From a virus, in the IMG/VR virus record IMGVR_UViG_3300022602_000084, positions 3,133 through 67,132 of that record: 64,000 nt of DNA; one strand, written 5' to 3'. The notes beneath the pieces are model-generated. The model was not told the origin of the DNA, did not search any database, and saw only the letters and a program-made list of their open reading frames with translations. Each line of letters starts with the position of its first letter. Position 1 is the stretch's first letter. This document shows positions 1,952 to 64,000 of the stretch, one piece after another. The translations under genes and the position numbers were made by a program.

Positions 1952-1954
1952 CGA

Positions 1955-2310
1955 CTCGCACAGGTCTTAAAACGTGTGCCTAGCGACAACCGGATAATAA
2001 CGGGGACGGAAGACTCTGCGCCGTACAGAGCACTCAATCACTATCCTTAACCGGACGAAGATCACCAATTGCCGTGATTTGATTGTTTGAAGTAAAAGAT
2101 TAAAGGCTAAAAAGACGCACTAGTGATAGTGCACGTTTATATAGTATGTTAGCGTATACGATATAAATCGCCGTTGTTATAAGAACGCTGCTCGAGGTAC
2201 CGGACAACCGCCTCTGTAATGCAGTAACGCTAGTGATTGCTACACTCGGATGAAGCTTTCTTTTTGCCCTGTGCGGGCAAAGAGTGACTGCGTTATCTGG
2301 ATGAAACTAG
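1955..2310 (+). ncRNA. Candidate large structured noncoding RNA of unknown class
   Basis: No credible ORF. More than 10 nested helices, including a 10-bp long-range stem 1994-2003/2171-2180, a GNRA-capped GCACTA-GTGA-TAGTGC hairpin, and G-U pairs that favour the + strand. Confidence 0.6.
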
Positions 2311-54297: not shown

Positions 54298-54326
54298 TTG
54301 ACTAGGCATAAATAATATTATACAAT
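54298..54326 (+). promoter_or_regulatory. Sigma70 promoter with late TAAATA core in its spacer
   Basis: TTGACT-aggcaTAAATAatatta-TACAAT (17-nt spacer). Confidence 0.8.
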
Positions 54327-61148: not shown

Positions 61149-61177
61149 TTGACTTAATTGTTAAATACTATTACAAT
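61149..61177 (+). promoter_or_regulatory. Sigma70 promoter of ahpC with embedded TAAATA
   Basis: TTGACT-taattgtTAAATActat-TACAAT (17-nt spacer). Confidence 0.8.
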
Positions 61178-61234: not shown

Positions 61235-61780
61235 ATGAAAACAATCGGCGATAAATTAACACACTTTGCAGTAACCGGAGTCCGTCCTGGACAACCAGAA
61301 GATGCTTTCTTCACCATTGACGAGAACACATTTGAAGGTAAGTGGAAGATCATCGTATTTTACCCCAAAGACCAAACTTTTGTTTGCCCCACAGAAATTG
61401 TAGCGTATGACAAATTAAATCAAGATTTTATTGATCGTGATGCTGTATTACTAACAGGATCGACGGATAATGAGTTCTGTAAAACGGCTTGGCAAAGTAG
61501 CCACCCTGAACTAAAATTAATCACTCATAATCAATTCGCAGACACACAAAGAGGTGAGTTGAGTCTAGTTAATCAATTAGGAGTGTTTTTCAACCCGGCC
61601 GGAGCAGCTCTTCGTGCTACCTTTATTATCGATCCAGATAATGTTATCCAACATGTCACAGTTAATAACTTAAATGTCGGTAGAAATCCAGAAGAAACAC
61701 TTCGAATCTTAGACTCGATACAGACCGAGGAGCTGTGTCAGTGTAATAGACAAGTGGGCCAGGAAACACTAGGCAAGTAA
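61235..61780 (+). CDS. ahpC: Peroxiredoxin AhpC
   Basis: FYPKDQTFVCPTE, ALRATFIIDP, VGRN, ELCQCN; AAGGAG RBS places the start at 61235. Confidence 0.95.
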   Translation: MKTIGDKLTHFAVTGVRPGQPEDAFFTIDENTFEGKWKIIVFYPKDQTFVCPTEIVAYDKLNQDFIDRDAVLLTGSTDNEFCKTAWQSSHPELKLITHNQFADTQRGELSLVNQLGVFFNPAGAALRATFIIDPDNVIQHVTVNNLNVGRNPEETLRILDSIQTEELCQCNRQVGQETLGK

Positions 61781-61864
61781 ATGGAAAGGTTGGTGATAAA
61801 TAATAGTGTAGTTCGCGGGACAGGAATCCCCAACTACTCTAATGCTATAAAGGAGCAATCAGCA

Positions 61865-62677
61865 ATGATATTTATCACCAACAGATACACTCGTATCTAC
61901 TTTTCTATAATAGAAAACGCAAGATCAAGAGTATTACCAAAAGATCAATACAAAGAAATACACCACATTATTCCTCGTTCAATGGGCGGGGATAATTCTT
62001 CTGACAATCTAGTTGACTTAACTGCTAGAGAACATTTCATCTGTCATAAACTTTTAGTAAGAATGACCGACGGTGAATCTAGAGGTAAGATGGCGTTTGC
62101 GTTAGTATTGATGTCTGGAAAAAGAGGCAGTAAGATTTATGATTCTACTAGAAAACTTTTAGCAGAAAGAGTAAGTCAACTGCATACTGGAAAAAGTCCT
62201 ATTACTAACGGAATATTAGACAAAACTTTATTTAAAGATGAACCAATGCCAGATGGATTTTATTATGGATTCTCACCGGCTACTATAAAGAAACACGGCG
62301 AAGGGAATAAAGGCAAGAGATGGATCACTAACGGTAGTGTATCATATCAACCTAAGGATGATATTTTGCCTGAGGGATTTTACTACGGACTGGCCGAATA
62401 TCATAAGAAAAAGGTTAGTGAAGCATTAAGCGGATCTGGTAACCCTATGTATGGAAAATTTGGAATAGATCATCCGGCTTATGGAAATAAACTTACGGAT
62501 GAAACTAAAAAATTAATGGCAAAATCAAAACAAGGAAGTAAAAATCCTATGTTTTGTAAGATTCCAGCAAACGCGAAAACGGTAGTAATAGACGGAGTCA
62601 CTTACAGAAGTGCCACCGAAGCAAGACAGAAAACAGGTTTGTCAAGAGGAACAATAGAAAAACTTTATAAGGAATAA
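61865..62677 (+). CDS. Free-standing HNH homing endonuclease between ahpC and ahpD
   Basis: EIHHIIPRSMGG...NLVDLTAREHFICHKLL; NPMYGK modules and C-terminal HTH; AAGGAG RBS places the start at 61865. Confidence 0.88.
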   Translation: MIFITNRYTRIYFSIIENARSRVLPKDQYKEIHHIIPRSMGGDNSSDNLVDLTAREHFICHKLLVRMTDGESRGKMAFALVLMSGKRGSKIYDSTRKLLAERVSQLHTGKSPITNGILDKTLFKDEPMPDGFYYGFSPATIKKHGEGNKGKRWITNGSVSYQPKDDILPEGFYYGLAEYHKKKVSEALSGSGNPMYGKFGIDHPAYGNKLTDETKKLMAKSKQGSKNPMFCKIPANAKTVVIDGVTYRSATEARQKTGLSRGTIEKLYKE

Positions 62678-62681
62678 TAAA

Positions 62682-63200
62682 ATGAGTTGGGTAGATCAAA
62701 TTAAAGAAGCATTACCAGATTATGCCAAAGACATAAAATTAAATCTGGATTCAGTTATTAAAAGAAGTACCTTAACAGATGAAGTTGCTAATGCGTGTGC
62801 GTTAGCCGCGGCGTTTGCTACAGGTAATGGTAAATTAGTTACATTTGTTAGCAGTAATTTTACAGACGAACAAACTGTTGTTCGTGATGCCGCACTTACA
62901 GCGGCAAGTTTAATGGCAATGACAAACAGTTGGTATCCCTACGTTGAAATGGCCGATGATCCTGCACTTGCCGGCTTGCCAGCAGGCTTACGCATGAATG
63001 CCATTGCTAGCCATGGTGGTACAACTAAAAGCAATTTTGAAGCATTTAGTTTGGCTGCAAGCATTGTTGGCAAATGCGAGTTCTGCGTTAAGGCACACTA
63101 CGAAACACTCAAGAAGGAAGGCTACACAGTAGAACAACTTCGTGACATTGGACGTATTGCCTCAGTTATCAACAGTGCCGCAAAGGTATTGAACAACTAA
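62682..63200 (+). CDS. ahpD: Alkylhydroperoxidase AhpD
   Basis: LPDYAKDIKLNL; ASIVGKCEFCVKAH CxxC motif. Confidence 0.93.
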   Translation: MSWVDQIKEALPDYAKDIKLNLDSVIKRSTLTDEVANACALAAAFATGNGKLVTFVSSNFTDEQTVVRDAALTAASLMAMTNSWYPYVEMADDPALAGLPAGLRMNAIASHGGTTKSNFEAFSLAASIVGKCEFCVKAHYETLKKEGYTVEQLRDIGRIASVINSAAKVLNN

Positions 63201-63251
63201 GAGCAAGTGGATAAATTGTTGCGTAAAAAACAACAGTTTATCCAAATGCTA

Positions 63252-63280
63252 TTGACAACAGGACTAAATAAACTTACAAT
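63252..63280 (+). promoter_or_regulatory. Sigma70 promoter with embedded late core, heading the ncRNA/tRNA region
   Basis: TTGACA-acaggacTAAATAaact-TACAAT (17-nt spacer). Confidence 0.85.
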
Positions 63281-63286
63281 ACGAAT

Positions 63287-63421
63287 ATGATGCAAAACAC
63301 TATTAAACATTCGCAATTAACGCTAATAGCCAATTTGGGTCTAACCACCTATTGGTCACAGTTTAATGCAATGCCTGCGTCAATTACAAGTGATCGTGAA
63401 CCAGGAGAGGGTTTAAGTTAA
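63287..63421 (+). CDS. Putative attenuator leader peptide (44 aa, leaderless)
   Basis: ATG at the predicted transcription start; MMQNTIKHSQLTLIANLGLTTYWSQFNAMPASITSDREPGEGLS*; stop codon lies in the antiterminator arm. Confidence 0.65.
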   Translation: MMQNTIKHSQLTLIANLGLTTYWSQFNAMPASITSDREPGEGLS

Positions 63422-63479
63422 CGTATAATATCAAATCATATTTTAACTTAAACCCTGGACTAAACACCCAGGGTTTTTT
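63408..63479 (+). terminator. Attenuator: antiterminator (63408-63421/63443-63456) competing with intrinsic terminator (63450-63479)
   Basis: 14-bp perfect AGGGTTTAAGTTAA/TTAACTTAAACCCT overlaps AAACCCTGG-9 nt-CCAGGGTTTTTT. Confidence 0.8.
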
Positions 63480-63493
63480 AATGAGGAAAGAAA

Positions 63494-63634
63494 ATGGGAA
63501 CAGAGAAAAAGAAGTTAACCGAGCAATTACCTTCTGTTCTTACACCAGAACAAAGGTTGGCTTTGTTAGAAGCCAAGTTAAAACGTGCCGAGGCCACAGC
63601 CCGAGCCCTTGCTGAACAAGCAAAGCGTTTATAA
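63494..63634 (+). CDS. Small coiled-coil hypothetical protein (46 aa)
   Basis: GAGGA RBS; MGTEKKKLTEQLPSVLTPEQRLALLEAKLKRAEATARALAEQAKRL*; below the ORF-track size cutoff. Confidence 0.6.
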   Translation: MGTEKKKLTEQLPSVLTPEQRLALLEAKLKRAEATARALAEQAKRL

Positions 63635-63649
63635 TTTAGCAAAATGTTA

Positions 63650-63945
63650 CAGGAAACGAGGTCCTGAGATCATTAAAATCTCAAACGGGCGGACTGCAGG
63701 ATGAATCCCACAAGGAGAAAAATTGCAGGCTAGGGTATAACCCTATCATATCCTCTACCAAGAGGGTATTCTAAAACACATCGGATGAATATTCCTGGGG
63801 GCACTGAGAGCCCGCCGAGGCAGACACGGATCCCGTGATAACCGATGTGTTTTAGAATACAACACCCAGACGAAAGAAGCCGATAGATTGATAAACTATG
63901 CCGGGGCAGTTCGCAAGATAAGTGTTCCAACTGTGGTGTTGTATT
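63650..63945 (+). ncRNA. Cluster of candidate structured ncRNAs
   Basis: Dense hairpins; 19-bp perfect stem 63766-63784/63842-63860; 11-bp stem 63856-63866/63935-63945. Confidence 0.55.
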
Positions 63946-63953
63946 ACCTATTG

Positions 63954-64000
63954 GGAAGGCCAATCCAAATGGCGATGGAACCGGTCTTGAAAACCGCCGA
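63954..64000 (+). tRNA. tRNA-Ser (anticodon TGA), truncated by the window end
   Basis: GGAAGGC acceptor 5' strand, D-loop with TGG, anticodon arm CGGT-CTTGAAA-ACCG; 3' half not visible. Confidence 0.75.

What the first reader, a model, noticed from the sequence alone, without database searches (positions are those of the whole stretch)
63252..64000. Candidate translation-sensing attenuator gating the phage ncRNA/tRNA region
Seen: a near-consensus sigma70 promoter whose predicted start falls on the ATG of a 44-codon ORF (63287-63421). The last codons and stop form arm A (AGGGTTTAAGTTAA, 63408-63421), which pairs perfectly over 14 bp with arm B (63443-63456). Arm B is also the 5' side of an intrinsic terminator (AAACCCTGG/CCAGGGTTTTTT, 63450-63479), so the two structures exclude each other. 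Downstream lie a small ORF, structured RNAs and a tRNA-Ser. Known: in trp/his-type attenuators a ribosome reaching the stop masks the antiterminator, and stalling allows read-through. Unlike those, this leader has no run of one amino acid: it uses 18 amino acids and 33 different codons, including all four Thr codons and TTA, CTA and ATA. Inference: a general sensor of tRNA-pool or translation failure (for example host anticodon nucleases or starvation) that turns on phage tRNAs on demand. I know of no description of this in phages. Limits: only one partial tRNA is visible, and the codon diversity has not been tested statistically.
Basis: partly seen in the sequence, partly recalled or inferred. 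Interest (0 to 1): 0.88.

Follow-up and report, generated by a model that had tools for sequence, protein, structure and literature searches.

The report
Leader-peptide attenuator before phage tRNA genes
A giant lake phage puts a tiny test gene, joined to an RNA switch that can stop transcription, in front of its tRNA genes, so it probably makes its own tRNAs only when ribosomes are decoding slowly.

Summary
It comprises a near-consensus sigma70 promoter (63252-63280), an ATG at the predicted start, a 44-codon ORF (63287-63421), and a perfect 14-bp arm A:arm B pairing whose arm B is also the 5' arm of an intrinsic terminator (63450-63479). The contig ends at 64000. Homologous contigs show that the partial tRNA-Ser opens arrays of up to 37 tRNA genes.

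I collected 62 distinct relatives from viral metagenome contigs.
- All keep one open frame of 25-58 codons.
- The stop lies inside the A:B hairpin, 17-32 nt before the terminator arm.
- Arm A changes together with the terminator.
- The hairpin is far more stable than shuffled sequence.
- 23 of 62 leaders contain all 20 amino acids (0.76 expected).

The window's own leader has 18 amino acids, which is not significant alone.

The geometry allows only one polarity. A ribosome that reaches the stop melts A:B and lets the terminator form. A late, stalled or absent ribosome gives read-through.

Nothing was tested experimentally. I found no pause hairpin, and leader codons are not enriched for those read by the phage tRNAs.

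My searches found no published account. This scan had already noted the same family on other DNA (e1-5809752, e1-5809769). I classify it as a new variant of leader-peptide attenuation.

The parts
63252..63280 (+). Sigma70-type promoter: TTGACA, 17 nt (with the spacer motif TAAATAAA), TACAAT
   Evidence: 11/12 match. It is conserved in homologues whose upstream DNA is unrelated. In the set collected by terminator alone, 21 of 36 leaders have a -35 of at least 5/6 and a -10 lying 6-10 nt before an in-frame ATG.
63287..63421 (+). Leader ORF: 44 codons plus TAA, starts ATGATG, leaderless (5' UTR of 0-1 nt predicted)
   Evidence: The same frame is open in 62 of 62 relatives and the other two frames in 0 of 62. 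Indels are multiples of three. Median dN/dS is 0.48 over 73 pairs. No Pfam or PHROG family matches.
63403..63411 (+). Purine-rich Shine-Dalgarno-like tract AGGAGAGGG; 11 nt separate AGGAG from the stop codon
   Evidence: Anti-SD complementarity peaks 4-11 nt before the stop in 48 of 62 leaders. 57 of 62 have a site of -5 kcal/mol or better in the last 40 nt. The rest of the leader averages about 0 to -1 kcal/mol.
63408..63421 (+). Arm A, the 5' strand of the antiterminator; it holds the last four codons and the stop
   Evidence: Perfect 14 bp with arm B. The basal helix is 99.4% paired in 31 distinct rows, with two pairs showing compensatory changes. Arm A is read in all three frames in different relatives.
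63423..63441 (+). Apical extension of the A:B hairpin (GTAT/ATAT and AT/AT around a 5-nt loop)
   Evidence: Fold. G-U and A-U exchanges keep the pairing in L003 and L042.
63443..63456 (+). Arm B, the 3' strand of the antiterminator; it shares 63450-63456 with the terminator
63450..63479 (+). Intrinsic terminator: stem AAACCCTGG/CCAGGGTTT, loop ACTAAACAC, T6
   Evidence: It forms in every one of the 36 relatives modelled once the RNA up to stop+12 is masked. 3 of 6 stem pairs show compensatory changes in the 27 promoter-ascertained relatives.
63494..63634 (+). ORF2, a 46-aa predicted protein with its own ribosome-binding site, 15 nt after the T run and with no promoter in between
   Evidence: It is conserved in the five close homologues. 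No significant family.
63640..63953 (+). Conserved structured RNA of unknown family between the terminator/ORF2 and the first tRNA
   Evidence: No Rfam match at E up to 10. A motif matching its 5' part follows the terminator in 26 of the 42 leader loci checked, and 21 of those loci, aligned with the window, show covarying helices.
63954..64000 (+). First 47 nt of tRNA-Ser(UGA), the first gene of the tRNA array; cut by the end of the record
   Evidence: 47 nt, 97.9% identical to the 5' part of the complete tRNA-Ser in L042. The gene is followed by 10 more tRNAs in L003. Phage tRNA-Ser genes match this stretch.

Best explanation
This is a ribosome-dependent transcription attenuator at the head of the phage's tRNA operon.

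Proposed mechanism:
1. Host RNA polymerase starts at the sigma70-type promoter, and the transcript begins at or next to the AUG of a 44-codon leader.
2. The last codons and the stop lie in the 5' strand of a long hairpin (A:B). Its 3' strand is also the 5' arm of an intrinsic terminator (B:C).
3. If the first ribosome keeps pace with the polymerase and reaches the end of the leader while the terminator is being made, it melts or covers the 5' half of A:B. B then pairs with C and transcription ends after about 193 nt.
4. If the ribosome is late, stalled at any earlier codon, or absent, A:B forms as soon as B emerges. The terminator cannot form, and transcription runs on into ORF2, a conserved structured RNA and the tRNA genes.

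Across the family the leader samples nearly all 20 amino acids, so slow decoding of almost any codon class should raise tRNA output. That would be a negative feedback on decoding capacity.

Shown by sequence comparison: the parts, their conservation, the covariation, the geometry, and the link to tRNA arrays.
Inferred: that the leader is translated, that the switch works co-transcriptionally, and what triggers it.
For: 1. Anatomy in the window.

2. Conservation. Five close homologues (78-89% nt identity) keep the promoter, ATGATG, frame, stop and all three arms, and their indels are multiples of 3. A distant clade keeps the design with three compensatory changes in A:B.

3. Link to tRNA arrays. 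Of 36 distinct leader loci found by terminator sequence alone, 25 of the 26 with at least 900 nt downstream carry same-strand tRNAs (1-37 genes). None of the 9 loci that have the same terminator after an ordinary long gene do. In loci collected through a neighbouring gene, 7 of 11 arrays have such a leader.

4. Structure.
- The basal A:B helix is 99.4% paired, with CG/UA exchanges at two pairs, against 68% when the partner is slid by one column.
- In relatives found by promoter only, the terminator stem changes (3 of 6 pairs compensatory) and arm A changes with it, for example CCUGGGG with CCCCAGG and CAUCCAGG with CCUGGAUG.
- The A:B fold has a median z of -3.7 against dinucleotide shuffles, and in 39 of 62 leaders none of 100 shuffles is as stable.
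- Arm A is read in all three frames in different members, so it is constrained as RNA.

5. Geometry. The stop lies 17-32 nt before the terminator arm in 62 of 62 leaders, and 27-36 nt before CCCTGG in 36 of 36. With the RNA masked to stop+12, the terminator forms in all 36 modelled.

6. Translation. The frame is open in 62 of 62 and the other frames in 0 of 62. dN/dS is 0.48.

7. Sampling. 23 of 62 leaders hold all 20 amino acids (0.76 expected) and 44 of 62 hold at least 19 (3.3 expected).

8. No promoter-like site lies between the terminator and the tRNA in the window.
Against: - No experiment or RNA data: no RNA run was listed for this stretch.
- No significant pause or anti-antiterminator hairpin lies upstream of arm A (median z -0.57; 7 of 62 below -2). 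How ribosome and polymerase are synchronised is therefore open.
- In about half of the family arm A starts 20-35 nt before the stop. That is outside the roughly 15 nt a ribosome at the stop covers on its 5' side (recalled figure), so the ribosome would melt only the upper two tiers of the hairpin there.
- In naked RNA some relatives prefer the terminator plus the apical hairpin, so the default state is not uniform.
- Leader codons are no more often readable by the phage's own tRNAs than codons of neighbouring genes (0.66 against 0.65, 16 loci).
- The window's own leader has only 18 amino acids (p=0.17).
- Conserved residues (a near-invariant Trp, a frequent DRxPE) could mean that the peptide itself has a function.
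- Some relatives have a promoter-like TTGACA soon after the terminator, which could bypass the switch.
- The family statistics come from related sequences and are not independent counts.
Confidence: 0.6

Rival explanations
1. The ORF is an ordinary small-protein gene (or the 193-nt transcript is a dual-function small RNA) with a normal, somewhat leaky terminator. The A:B hairpin then serves another purpose, such as transcript stability or an RNase III-type processing site that separates the leader from the tRNA precursor. Its overlap with the terminator would have no regulatory meaning.
For: - The peptide has conserved residues (Trp in 94% of leaders, a frequent DRxPE) and dN/dS below 1.
- The A:B stem, at 14 to about 20 bp, is long enough to be a double-strand RNase substrate (the substrate length is recalled knowledge).
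- The same terminator sequence is used after ordinary genes in 9 other contigs.
Against: - The overlap of B with the terminator arm is kept in all 62 relatives, and arm A tracks changes of the terminator arm. A processing hairpin does not need this.
- The peptide is weakly constrained (dN/dS 0.48) and its motif spacings vary.
- Holding all 20 amino acids in 38-58 residues is hard to explain for a folded or membrane small protein.
- ORF2 and the tRNAs in the window have no promoter of their own, so the terminator must be read through at a useful rate.
- No family match.
Confidence: 0.2
2. The A:B/B:C switch is real, but a trans-acting factor sets it rather than the ribosome. The factor could be a phage or host protein, a tRNA (T-box-like) or a small molecule that stabilises or melts the antiterminator. 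The ORF would be incidental or would only tune the switch.
For: - Conserved non-helical sequences exist in the hairpin (the TAAGTWAAC apex and a purine tract) and in the terminator loop (A[CT]TAAA[AC]AC). These could be binding sites.
- No pause hairpin for ribosome synchronisation was found.
Against: - No T-box or other riboswitch family matches, even at E up to 10.
- The stop codon sits at a tightly kept position inside the hairpin, and a unique open frame is kept in 62 of 62. A factor-only switch does not need either.
- The amino-acid sampling signal belongs to the translated frame.
Confidence: 0.12
3. The nascent leader peptide is a programmed arrest peptide (TnaC/SecM-like). It would stall the ribosome at a fixed place in response to one specific ligand or state, rather than acting as a general decoding-speed gauge.
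For: - A near-invariant Trp and a DRxPE-like motif lie in the part of the peptide that would sit in the exit tunnel at the stop.
- An SD-like tract lies at a fixed distance before the stop.
Against: - The Trp-to-Asp and Asp-to-stop distances vary widely among relatives: 9-13 and 8-17 residues in the examples read. Known arrest peptides do not tolerate this (recalled knowledge).
- Whole clades lack the DR motif.
- A stall at the stop would favour termination, not induction.
Confidence: 0.08

Closest known systems
Leader-peptide transcription attenuators of amino-acid operons (trpL, hisL, thrL, ilvL; textbook knowledge, recalled)
   Same: A short translated leader, an intrinsic terminator before the regulated genes, an alternative antiterminator pairing that shares a strand with the terminator, and a ribosome position that decides between the two.
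   Different: - It has three segments, not four. No 1:2 pause or anti-antiterminator hairpin was detected, so an untranslated leader should read through rather than super-attenuate.
- It has no run of one regulatory codon. Instead nearly all 20 amino acids occur about once.
- The leader is mostly leaderless.
- The regulated genes are tRNAs and a non-coding RNA in a phage, not biosynthetic enzymes.
Ribosome-mediated attenuators that answer to general translation inhibition, e.g. BmrB-bmrCD of Bacillus subtilis (PMC4191407) and the toiL uORF of E. coli (PMC12121999); I saw only the search listing and the start of each abstract
   Same: A short upstream ORF senses impaired translation in general rather than one amino acid, and read-through rises when ribosomes are slowed.
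   Different: Those elements control drug transporters or toxin-antitoxin genes in bacteria and were found through antibiotics. Here the output is the translation substrate itself (tRNAs), which closes a feedback loop, and the element is viral.
Leaderless poly-cysteine short ORFs that attenuate operons in mycobacteria (bioRxiv 10.1101/834739; search listing and start of abstract only)
   Same: A leaderless short ORF, as the first cistron, works as an attenuator.
   Different: That ORF is specific for cysteine codons and cysteine genes and is bacterial. Whether a terminator switch is involved I did not read.
The long tRNA array (trn operon) of Anabaena sp. PCC 7120, silent until translation is impaired (PMC8421152, passages read; PMC10272220, abstract start and a term search)
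   Same: The same biological logic: an extra array of tRNA genes is switched on under translational stress.
   Different: There the control acts at the promoter, through direct repeats and a repressor. The words leader peptide, attenuat- and terminator do not occur in either text.
T-box riboswitches (recalled knowledge)
   Same: A terminator/antiterminator switch that reports on the tRNA pool.
   Different: T-boxes bind uncharged tRNA directly and need no ORF. No T-box or other Rfam family matches here.

Membership tests
Leader-peptide (ribosome-mediated) transcription attenuator | Short ORF in the 5' leader of the regulated transcript, maintained as a reading frame | tested here: met
   44 codons in the window. 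The frame is open in 62 of 62 relatives and the other two frames in 0 of 62. Indels are in frame. dN/dS is 0.48. Translation itself was not observed.
Leader-peptide (ribosome-mediated) transcription attenuator | Intrinsic terminator between the leader ORF and the regulated genes | tested here: met
   63450-63479. A terminator was found in 62 of the 74 candidate short ORFs examined. Its stem covaries. tRNA arrays follow it.
Leader-peptide (ribosome-mediated) transcription attenuator | Antiterminator pairing that is mutually exclusive with the terminator | tested here: met
   A:B shares 7 nt with the terminator arm in the window and 6-13 nt in the 62 relatives. Covariation. Stability: median z -3.7.
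Leader-peptide (ribosome-mediated) transcription attenuator | Leader codons or stop placed so that the ribosome's position selects the structure | tested here: met
   The stop lies inside the A:B hairpin, 17-32 nt before the terminator arm, in 62 of 62. With a mask to stop+12, the terminator forms in 36 of 36. The footprint sizes used are recalled values.
Leader-peptide (ribosome-mediated) transcription attenuator | Read-through responds to leader translation | not testable with these tools
   This needs reporter, Term-seq or in vitro coupled assays. No RNA run was listed.
trp/his-type attenuator in the narrow sense | Run of codons for the regulating amino acid | tested here: not met
   The window's leader has 18 different amino acids in 44 codons and no run. 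The family median is 19 of 20 (distribution).
trp/his-type attenuator in the narrow sense | Upstream 1:2 pause / anti-antiterminator hairpin | tested here: not met
   The 45 nt before arm A fold no better than shuffles (median z -0.57; 7 of 62 below -2).
T-box riboswitch and other Rfam cis-regulatory leaders | Match to the family covariance model | tested here: not met
   No family reaches its gathering score. The best leader-type match is rnk_leader, at 20.2 bits against a threshold of 50 and E=1.1.

The most novel reading that the evidence does not exclude
Giant phages may carry a gauge of decoding speed for all amino acids. It would be a leaderless test gene that spells nearly every amino acid once, and its first ribosome would race the polymerase to a hairpin. 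If the ribosome arrives on time, transcription stops. If any codon class is decoded slowly, for example after host shut-off, starvation or cleavage of host tRNAs by defence nucleases, transcription runs on and the phage switches on its own tRNA set and an associated unknown structured RNA. An SD-like tract 4-11 nt before the stop may hold the terminating ribosome in place long enough for the terminator to form.
Probability: 0.45. Interest if true: 0.9.

Novelty: new variant of a known kind. Interest (0 to 1): 0.8.

Why it matters
tRNA genes are usually treated as constitutively or growth-rate controlled. Why large phages carry dozens of them, and when they use them, is an open and active question, including their recently reported role against tRNA-cleaving host defences (recalled knowledge).

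If this reading is right, a switch would let the phage's tRNA operon respond directly to the speed of decoding of all amino acids. That would be attenuation logic applied to the translation machinery itself.

It is directly testable. The promoter is sigma70-type and the element is under 250 nt, so it can be moved into a reporter in a laboratory strain.

It would also give a compact natural sensor of translation capacity. The conserved unknown RNA behind the terminator is a second lead.

Tried and rejected
- Rfam at gathering thresholds found nothing in the region. At E up to 10 it returned only weak chance-level matches, mostly hairpin look-alikes (microRNA precursors) and rnk_leader at 20.2 bits.
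- A search for RNA sequencing runs holding 63200-64000 listed no RNA holder, so I laid no reads.
- tblastn of the leader against 50,697 phage records found no match at E up to 5. blastn of the region there matched only the tRNA-Ser part. No cultured relative with the element was found.
- TATAAT in the A:B loop (63424-63429) as an internal promoter: rejected. There is no -35, and it is not conserved in L003 or L042.
- G GGT TTA as a -1 frameshift site: rejected. It is present only in the window's clade; other clades have GGGTCC.
- A fixed arrest peptide: not favoured, because the Trp-to-Asp and Asp-to-stop spacings vary.
- Codon matching between the leader and the phage tRNA set: no enrichment (0.66 against 0.65 in 16 loci; many arrays are cut by contig ends).
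- An upstream pause or anti-antiterminator hairpin: not significant.
- The count of sequestered terminator bases alone did not separate real from shuffled upstream sequence. The folding energy did.
- The opposite polarity, in which the ribosome blocks the terminator as in pyrBI (recalled): rejected on geometry, because the stop is at least 17 nt from the terminator arm in 62 of 62.
- Literature searches found no description of a leader-peptide attenuator before phage or bacterial tRNA genes. Supplementary files were not consulted.
- I did not use the large protein searches, structure prediction or complex prediction. They would not bear on a 44-residue leader.
Full report
**What the window is.** The window is the last 64 kb of a 67,132-bp viral metagenome record, and the record ends at window position 64000. 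CheckV rates the record 18% complete, which implies a genome of several hundred kb. Upstream of the finding lie an AhpC-type peroxiredoxin gene (61235-61780), an HNH homing endonuclease gene (61781-62677) and a CMD/AhpD-type gene (62682-63200).

**Check of the observation.**
- Promoter: TTGACA 63252-63257, 17 nt, TACAAT 63275-63280. This is 11 of 12 matches and the best of three promoter-like sites found in 62500-64000.
- ATG at 63287, six bases after the -10. The transcript should therefore start at or one base before the start codon.
- ORF of 44 codons ending in TAA at 63419-63421.
- Arm A (63408-63421) and arm B (63443-63456) are perfect reverse complements over 14 bp. Further pairs toward the loop extend the hairpin.
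- Arm B overlaps the 5' arm of a terminator: AAACCCTGG, a nine-base loop, CCAGGGTTT, and six T in all (63450-63479). The automatic scan missed it only because of its loop limit.

The inverted repeat is the second longest of 12 local ones in the whole window. The terminator motif is unique in the window. As naked RNA the minimum-energy fold forms A:B and not the terminator. No Rfam family matches.

Against random 44-codon windows of the window's own long ORFs, the codon count is modestly unusual (p=0.014) and the amino-acid count is not (p=0.17).

**What lies downstream.** ARAGORN finds no complete tRNA in the window. The last 47 bases are nevertheless 97.9% identical to the start of a full tRNA-Ser(UGA) in a homologous contig. 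In another homologue that gene is followed by ten more tRNAs. Between the terminator and the tRNA lie a 46-codon ORF with its own ribosome-binding site (63494-63634) and about 310 nt of structured RNA. No promoter-like site was found on the + strand in that interval. Expression of ORF2, the RNA and the tRNAs in this phage therefore appears to need read-through of the terminator.

**Relatives.** I collected them in three ways that do not depend on each other.

1. Through the neighbouring AhpD-like gene. Five contigs carry the same element at 78-89% nucleotide identity. The promoter, ATGATG, frame, stop position and all three arms are kept. The only indels in the ORF are multiples of three, and one compensatory A-U to G-C change occurs in A:B. 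A more distant clade has a 53-codon leader with a 5' UTR and a ribosome-binding site. There arm A is GGGTTCTT and arm B is AAGAACCC, which is three compensatory changes relative to the window.

2. By the terminator sequence alone. This gave 56 loci, 45 distinct with the window. 36 of them have a short ORF ending 27-36 nt before the terminator core, and 9 have the same terminator after an ordinary long gene.

This gave 99 distinct ORFs. Among them are 28 further leaders whose terminator stems differ from the window's.

Together these make 62 distinct leaders with a recognisable terminator, out of 74 short ORFs examined. Of the 12 without a detected terminator, some are clearly unrelated genes and three look like truncated or missed family members.

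**Link to tRNA genes.** Of the 36 terminator-ascertained leader loci, 26 have at least 900 nt of sequence downstream. 25 of those carry tRNA genes on the same strand (1 to 37 genes), and the first lies 138-2,219 nt after the terminator. The one exception has 1,585 nt available. None of the nine loci with the same terminator but no leader has a tRNA. In the loci collected through the AhpD-like gene, which were not chosen for any leader feature, 11 distinct arrays had enough upstream sequence. An automatic search found a leader-like element before 7 of them, one of them doubtful. The element is thus common at the head of these arrays but may not be universal.

**The RNA switch is under selection.**
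- The basal helix of A:B (GGGUYY with RRACCC) is paired in 99.4% of cells of a 31-row alignment. Two pairs exchange C-G and U-A. Sliding the partner by one column drops pairing to 68%.
- That set was collected with a fixed terminator sequence, so its terminator cannot vary. The promoter-ascertained set fills this gap: three of six terminator pairs show compensatory changes.
- Arm A follows the terminator arm. It is CCUGGGG where the arm is CCCCAGG, CCCUAGGG with CCCUAGG, and CAUCCAGG with CCUGGAUG. In these members arm A is in effect a copy of the terminator's 3' arm, which is the signature of an antiterminator.
- The A:B-containing fold is much more stable than with a dinucleotide-shuffled upstream sequence. 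The median z is -3.7, and in 39 of 62 none of 100 shuffles is as stable. The simple count of sequestered bases did not discriminate.
- Arm A is translated in all three frames in different members (Gly-Phe/Ser, Arg-Val, x-Gly-Leu). Its conservation is therefore at the RNA level.

**The ORF behaves as a translated frame.** It is open in 62 of 62, while the two other frames contain about four stops each and are never open. Among 73 pairs of relatives at 55-98% identity, the median dN/dS in the part before arm A is 0.48, and 90% of pairs are below 1. This constraint is weak compared with ordinary proteins. No Pfam or PHROG family matches.

**Composition.** 23 of 62 leaders contain all 20 amino acids and 44 of 62 contain at least 19. 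Windows of the same length from the window's proteins would give 0.76 and 3.3 (the first 36 are). Cys, His, Met and Trp are enriched. This fits the idea that each amino acid is kept at least once. It would also explain why single-copy residues such as Trp, Tyr, His, Phe, Asp and Arg are the invariant ones in the alignment (inference). These counts come from related sequences and are not independent events, although the peptides are very diverged. The window's own leader lacks Cys and Val.

**Geometry and polarity.** The stop codon always lies in the apical part of the A:B hairpin. It is 17-32 nt before the first base of the terminator arm, and arm A starts 9-35 nt before the stop, with modes near 10 and 25. 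I use the usual footprint of roughly 15 nt upstream and 12 nt downstream of the A-site codon (recalled). On that basis a ribosome at the stop can never cover the terminator arm. It always occupies the 5' strand of the middle and apical tiers of the hairpin, and in the short class, which includes the window, it occupies all of arm A. With the RNA masked up to stop+12, the terminator is the predicted fold in all 36 cases modelled. Without a ribosome, A:B is the minimum-energy fold in the window and in many relatives, while some prefer the terminator plus the apical hairpin. The two states are thus close in energy, as expected for a switch. This leaves one workable polarity: timely translation to the end of the leader gives termination, and late, stalled or absent translation gives read-through. 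It also excludes the pyrBI-type logic, in which the ribosome disrupts the terminator.

**An added feature.** A purine-rich tract complementary to the 16S rRNA 3' end lies 4-11 nt before the stop in 48 of 62 leaders. The mean predicted pairing energy there is -5 to -6 kcal/mol, against about 0 to -1 elsewhere in the leader. In the window it is AGGAG at 63403-63407. The tract is also the 5' strand of the middle helix, paired with CUUC, so its conservation may be structural. Alternatively it may hold the terminating ribosome on the hairpin. That is my inference and is untested.

**Start of the leader.** In the terminator-ascertained set, 21 of 36 leaders have a sigma70-type promoter whose -10 ends 6-10 nt before an in-frame ATG, and in 17 of these the gap is 6-7 nt. 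These leaders are leaderless or nearly so. Of the other 15, two loci are cut just upstream of the -10. One clade has a roughly 55-nt 5' UTR with a small hairpin and a ribosome-binding site. Being leaderless is therefore frequent but not essential.

**What speaks against the model, or is missing.**
- I found no conserved hairpin upstream of arm A that could pause the polymerase or act as an anti-antiterminator.
- Leader codons are not enriched for those the phage tRNAs read.
- Some relatives have a promoter-like sequence after the terminator.
- No RNA data could be found, and no cultured phage carries the element in the collection searched.
- The conserved Trp and DRxPE residues leave room for a function of the peptide. 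Their variable spacing argues against a fixed arrest peptide.

**Comparison with what is known.** In its parts and logic the element is a leader-peptide transcription attenuator. It differs from the trp/his type in four ways:
- it has three segments and no pause hairpin;
- it has no run of a regulatory codon, but a sample of nearly all amino acids;
- it is usually leaderless;
- it controls tRNA genes in a virus.

Attenuators that answer to general translation inhibition are known for drug-resistance and toxin genes (PMC4191407, PMC12121999; listing and abstract start only). Leaderless attenuator ORFs are known in mycobacteria (10.1101/834739; listing only). The nearest case in biological logic is the Anabaena tRNA array that is induced by translational stress. 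That array is controlled at its promoter by repeats and a repressor, and the two papers do not contain the words leader peptide, attenuat- or terminator (PMC8421152, passages; PMC10272220). Six literature searches found no account of a leader-peptide attenuator before tRNA genes.

**Earlier notes of this scan.** Notes on another genome describe what appears to be the same family, since they share sequence words with this stretch (e1-5809752, e1-5809769). Other notes describe similar designs in unrelated phages. These are unchecked AI notes. I re-derived the layout and the all-amino-acid property from my own data and do not count the notes as evidence.

**Verdict.** I give 0.6 to the ribosome-dependent attenuator with the stated polarity. 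The remainder goes to a small-protein or processing reading, a factor-controlled switch, or a specific arrest peptide. It is a new variant of a known kind of control and is of high interest.

Noticed in passing
window 63640-63953; also L091, L096, L100, L124, L128, L140, L149 and others after their terminators: A conserved structured RNA of unknown family sits between the attenuator (or ORF2) and the first tRNA. It has a GUG/CAC helix, a hairpin with the conserved loop AACGNGR on a covarying stem (AGGG/CCCU, CAGGA/UCCUG, GCGA/UCGC), a GGGCGG motif, and a covarying CCUACC/GGUAG helix. In the window it also has a perfect 19-bp hairpin (63766-63784 with 63842-63860). No Rfam match at E up to 10.
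   Followed up: partly
window 1953-2088 (+): A full-length match to the Polynucleobacter-1 RNA family (RF01718): 88.8 bits against a threshold of 37.
   Followed up: no
window 61235-63200: An HNH homing endonuclease gene with NUMOD3 motifs (61781-62677) lies between an AhpC-type peroxiredoxin gene and a CMD/AhpD-type gene. In relatives the distance from the AhpD-like gene to the attenuator varies from 0 to about 4.4 kb.
   Followed up: partly
L092, L099, L105, L114, L115, L116, L122, L133, L137: The same terminator, including its conserved loop A[ACT]TAAA[AC]AC, follows an ordinary long gene ending ...ATFTTQ or ...GFKLA(A/T)S in nine other viral contigs with no tRNAs nearby. The conserved loop suggests more than a plain hairpin.
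   Followed up: no
window 63209-63243: A 13-bp hairpin (GGATAAATTGTTG / CAACAGTTTATCC, one G-T pair) lies right after the AhpD-like gene and before the promoter, with no T run. It is kept in L003 and L058.
   Followed up: no
window 54298-54326 and 61149-61177: Two more sigma70-like promoters have a TAAATA-type spacer like the leader's. The spacer motif TAAATAAA is kept in most leader promoters of the family.
   Followed up: no
L011 and L013, 2160-2233: ARAGORN calls a tRNA with anticodon CUA (listed as tRNA-Pyl), which is a possible amber suppressor, about 4.5 kb upstream of the attenuator in a related giant phage.
   Followed up: no
window 63413-63421 and the hairpin apex in relatives: The apex motif TAAGTWAA places two stop codons in two different frames within a few bases of each other (TAA at 63414 in the +1 frame, TAA at 63419 in frame). 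A ribosome that has shifted frame would still end at nearly the same place.
   Followed up: no
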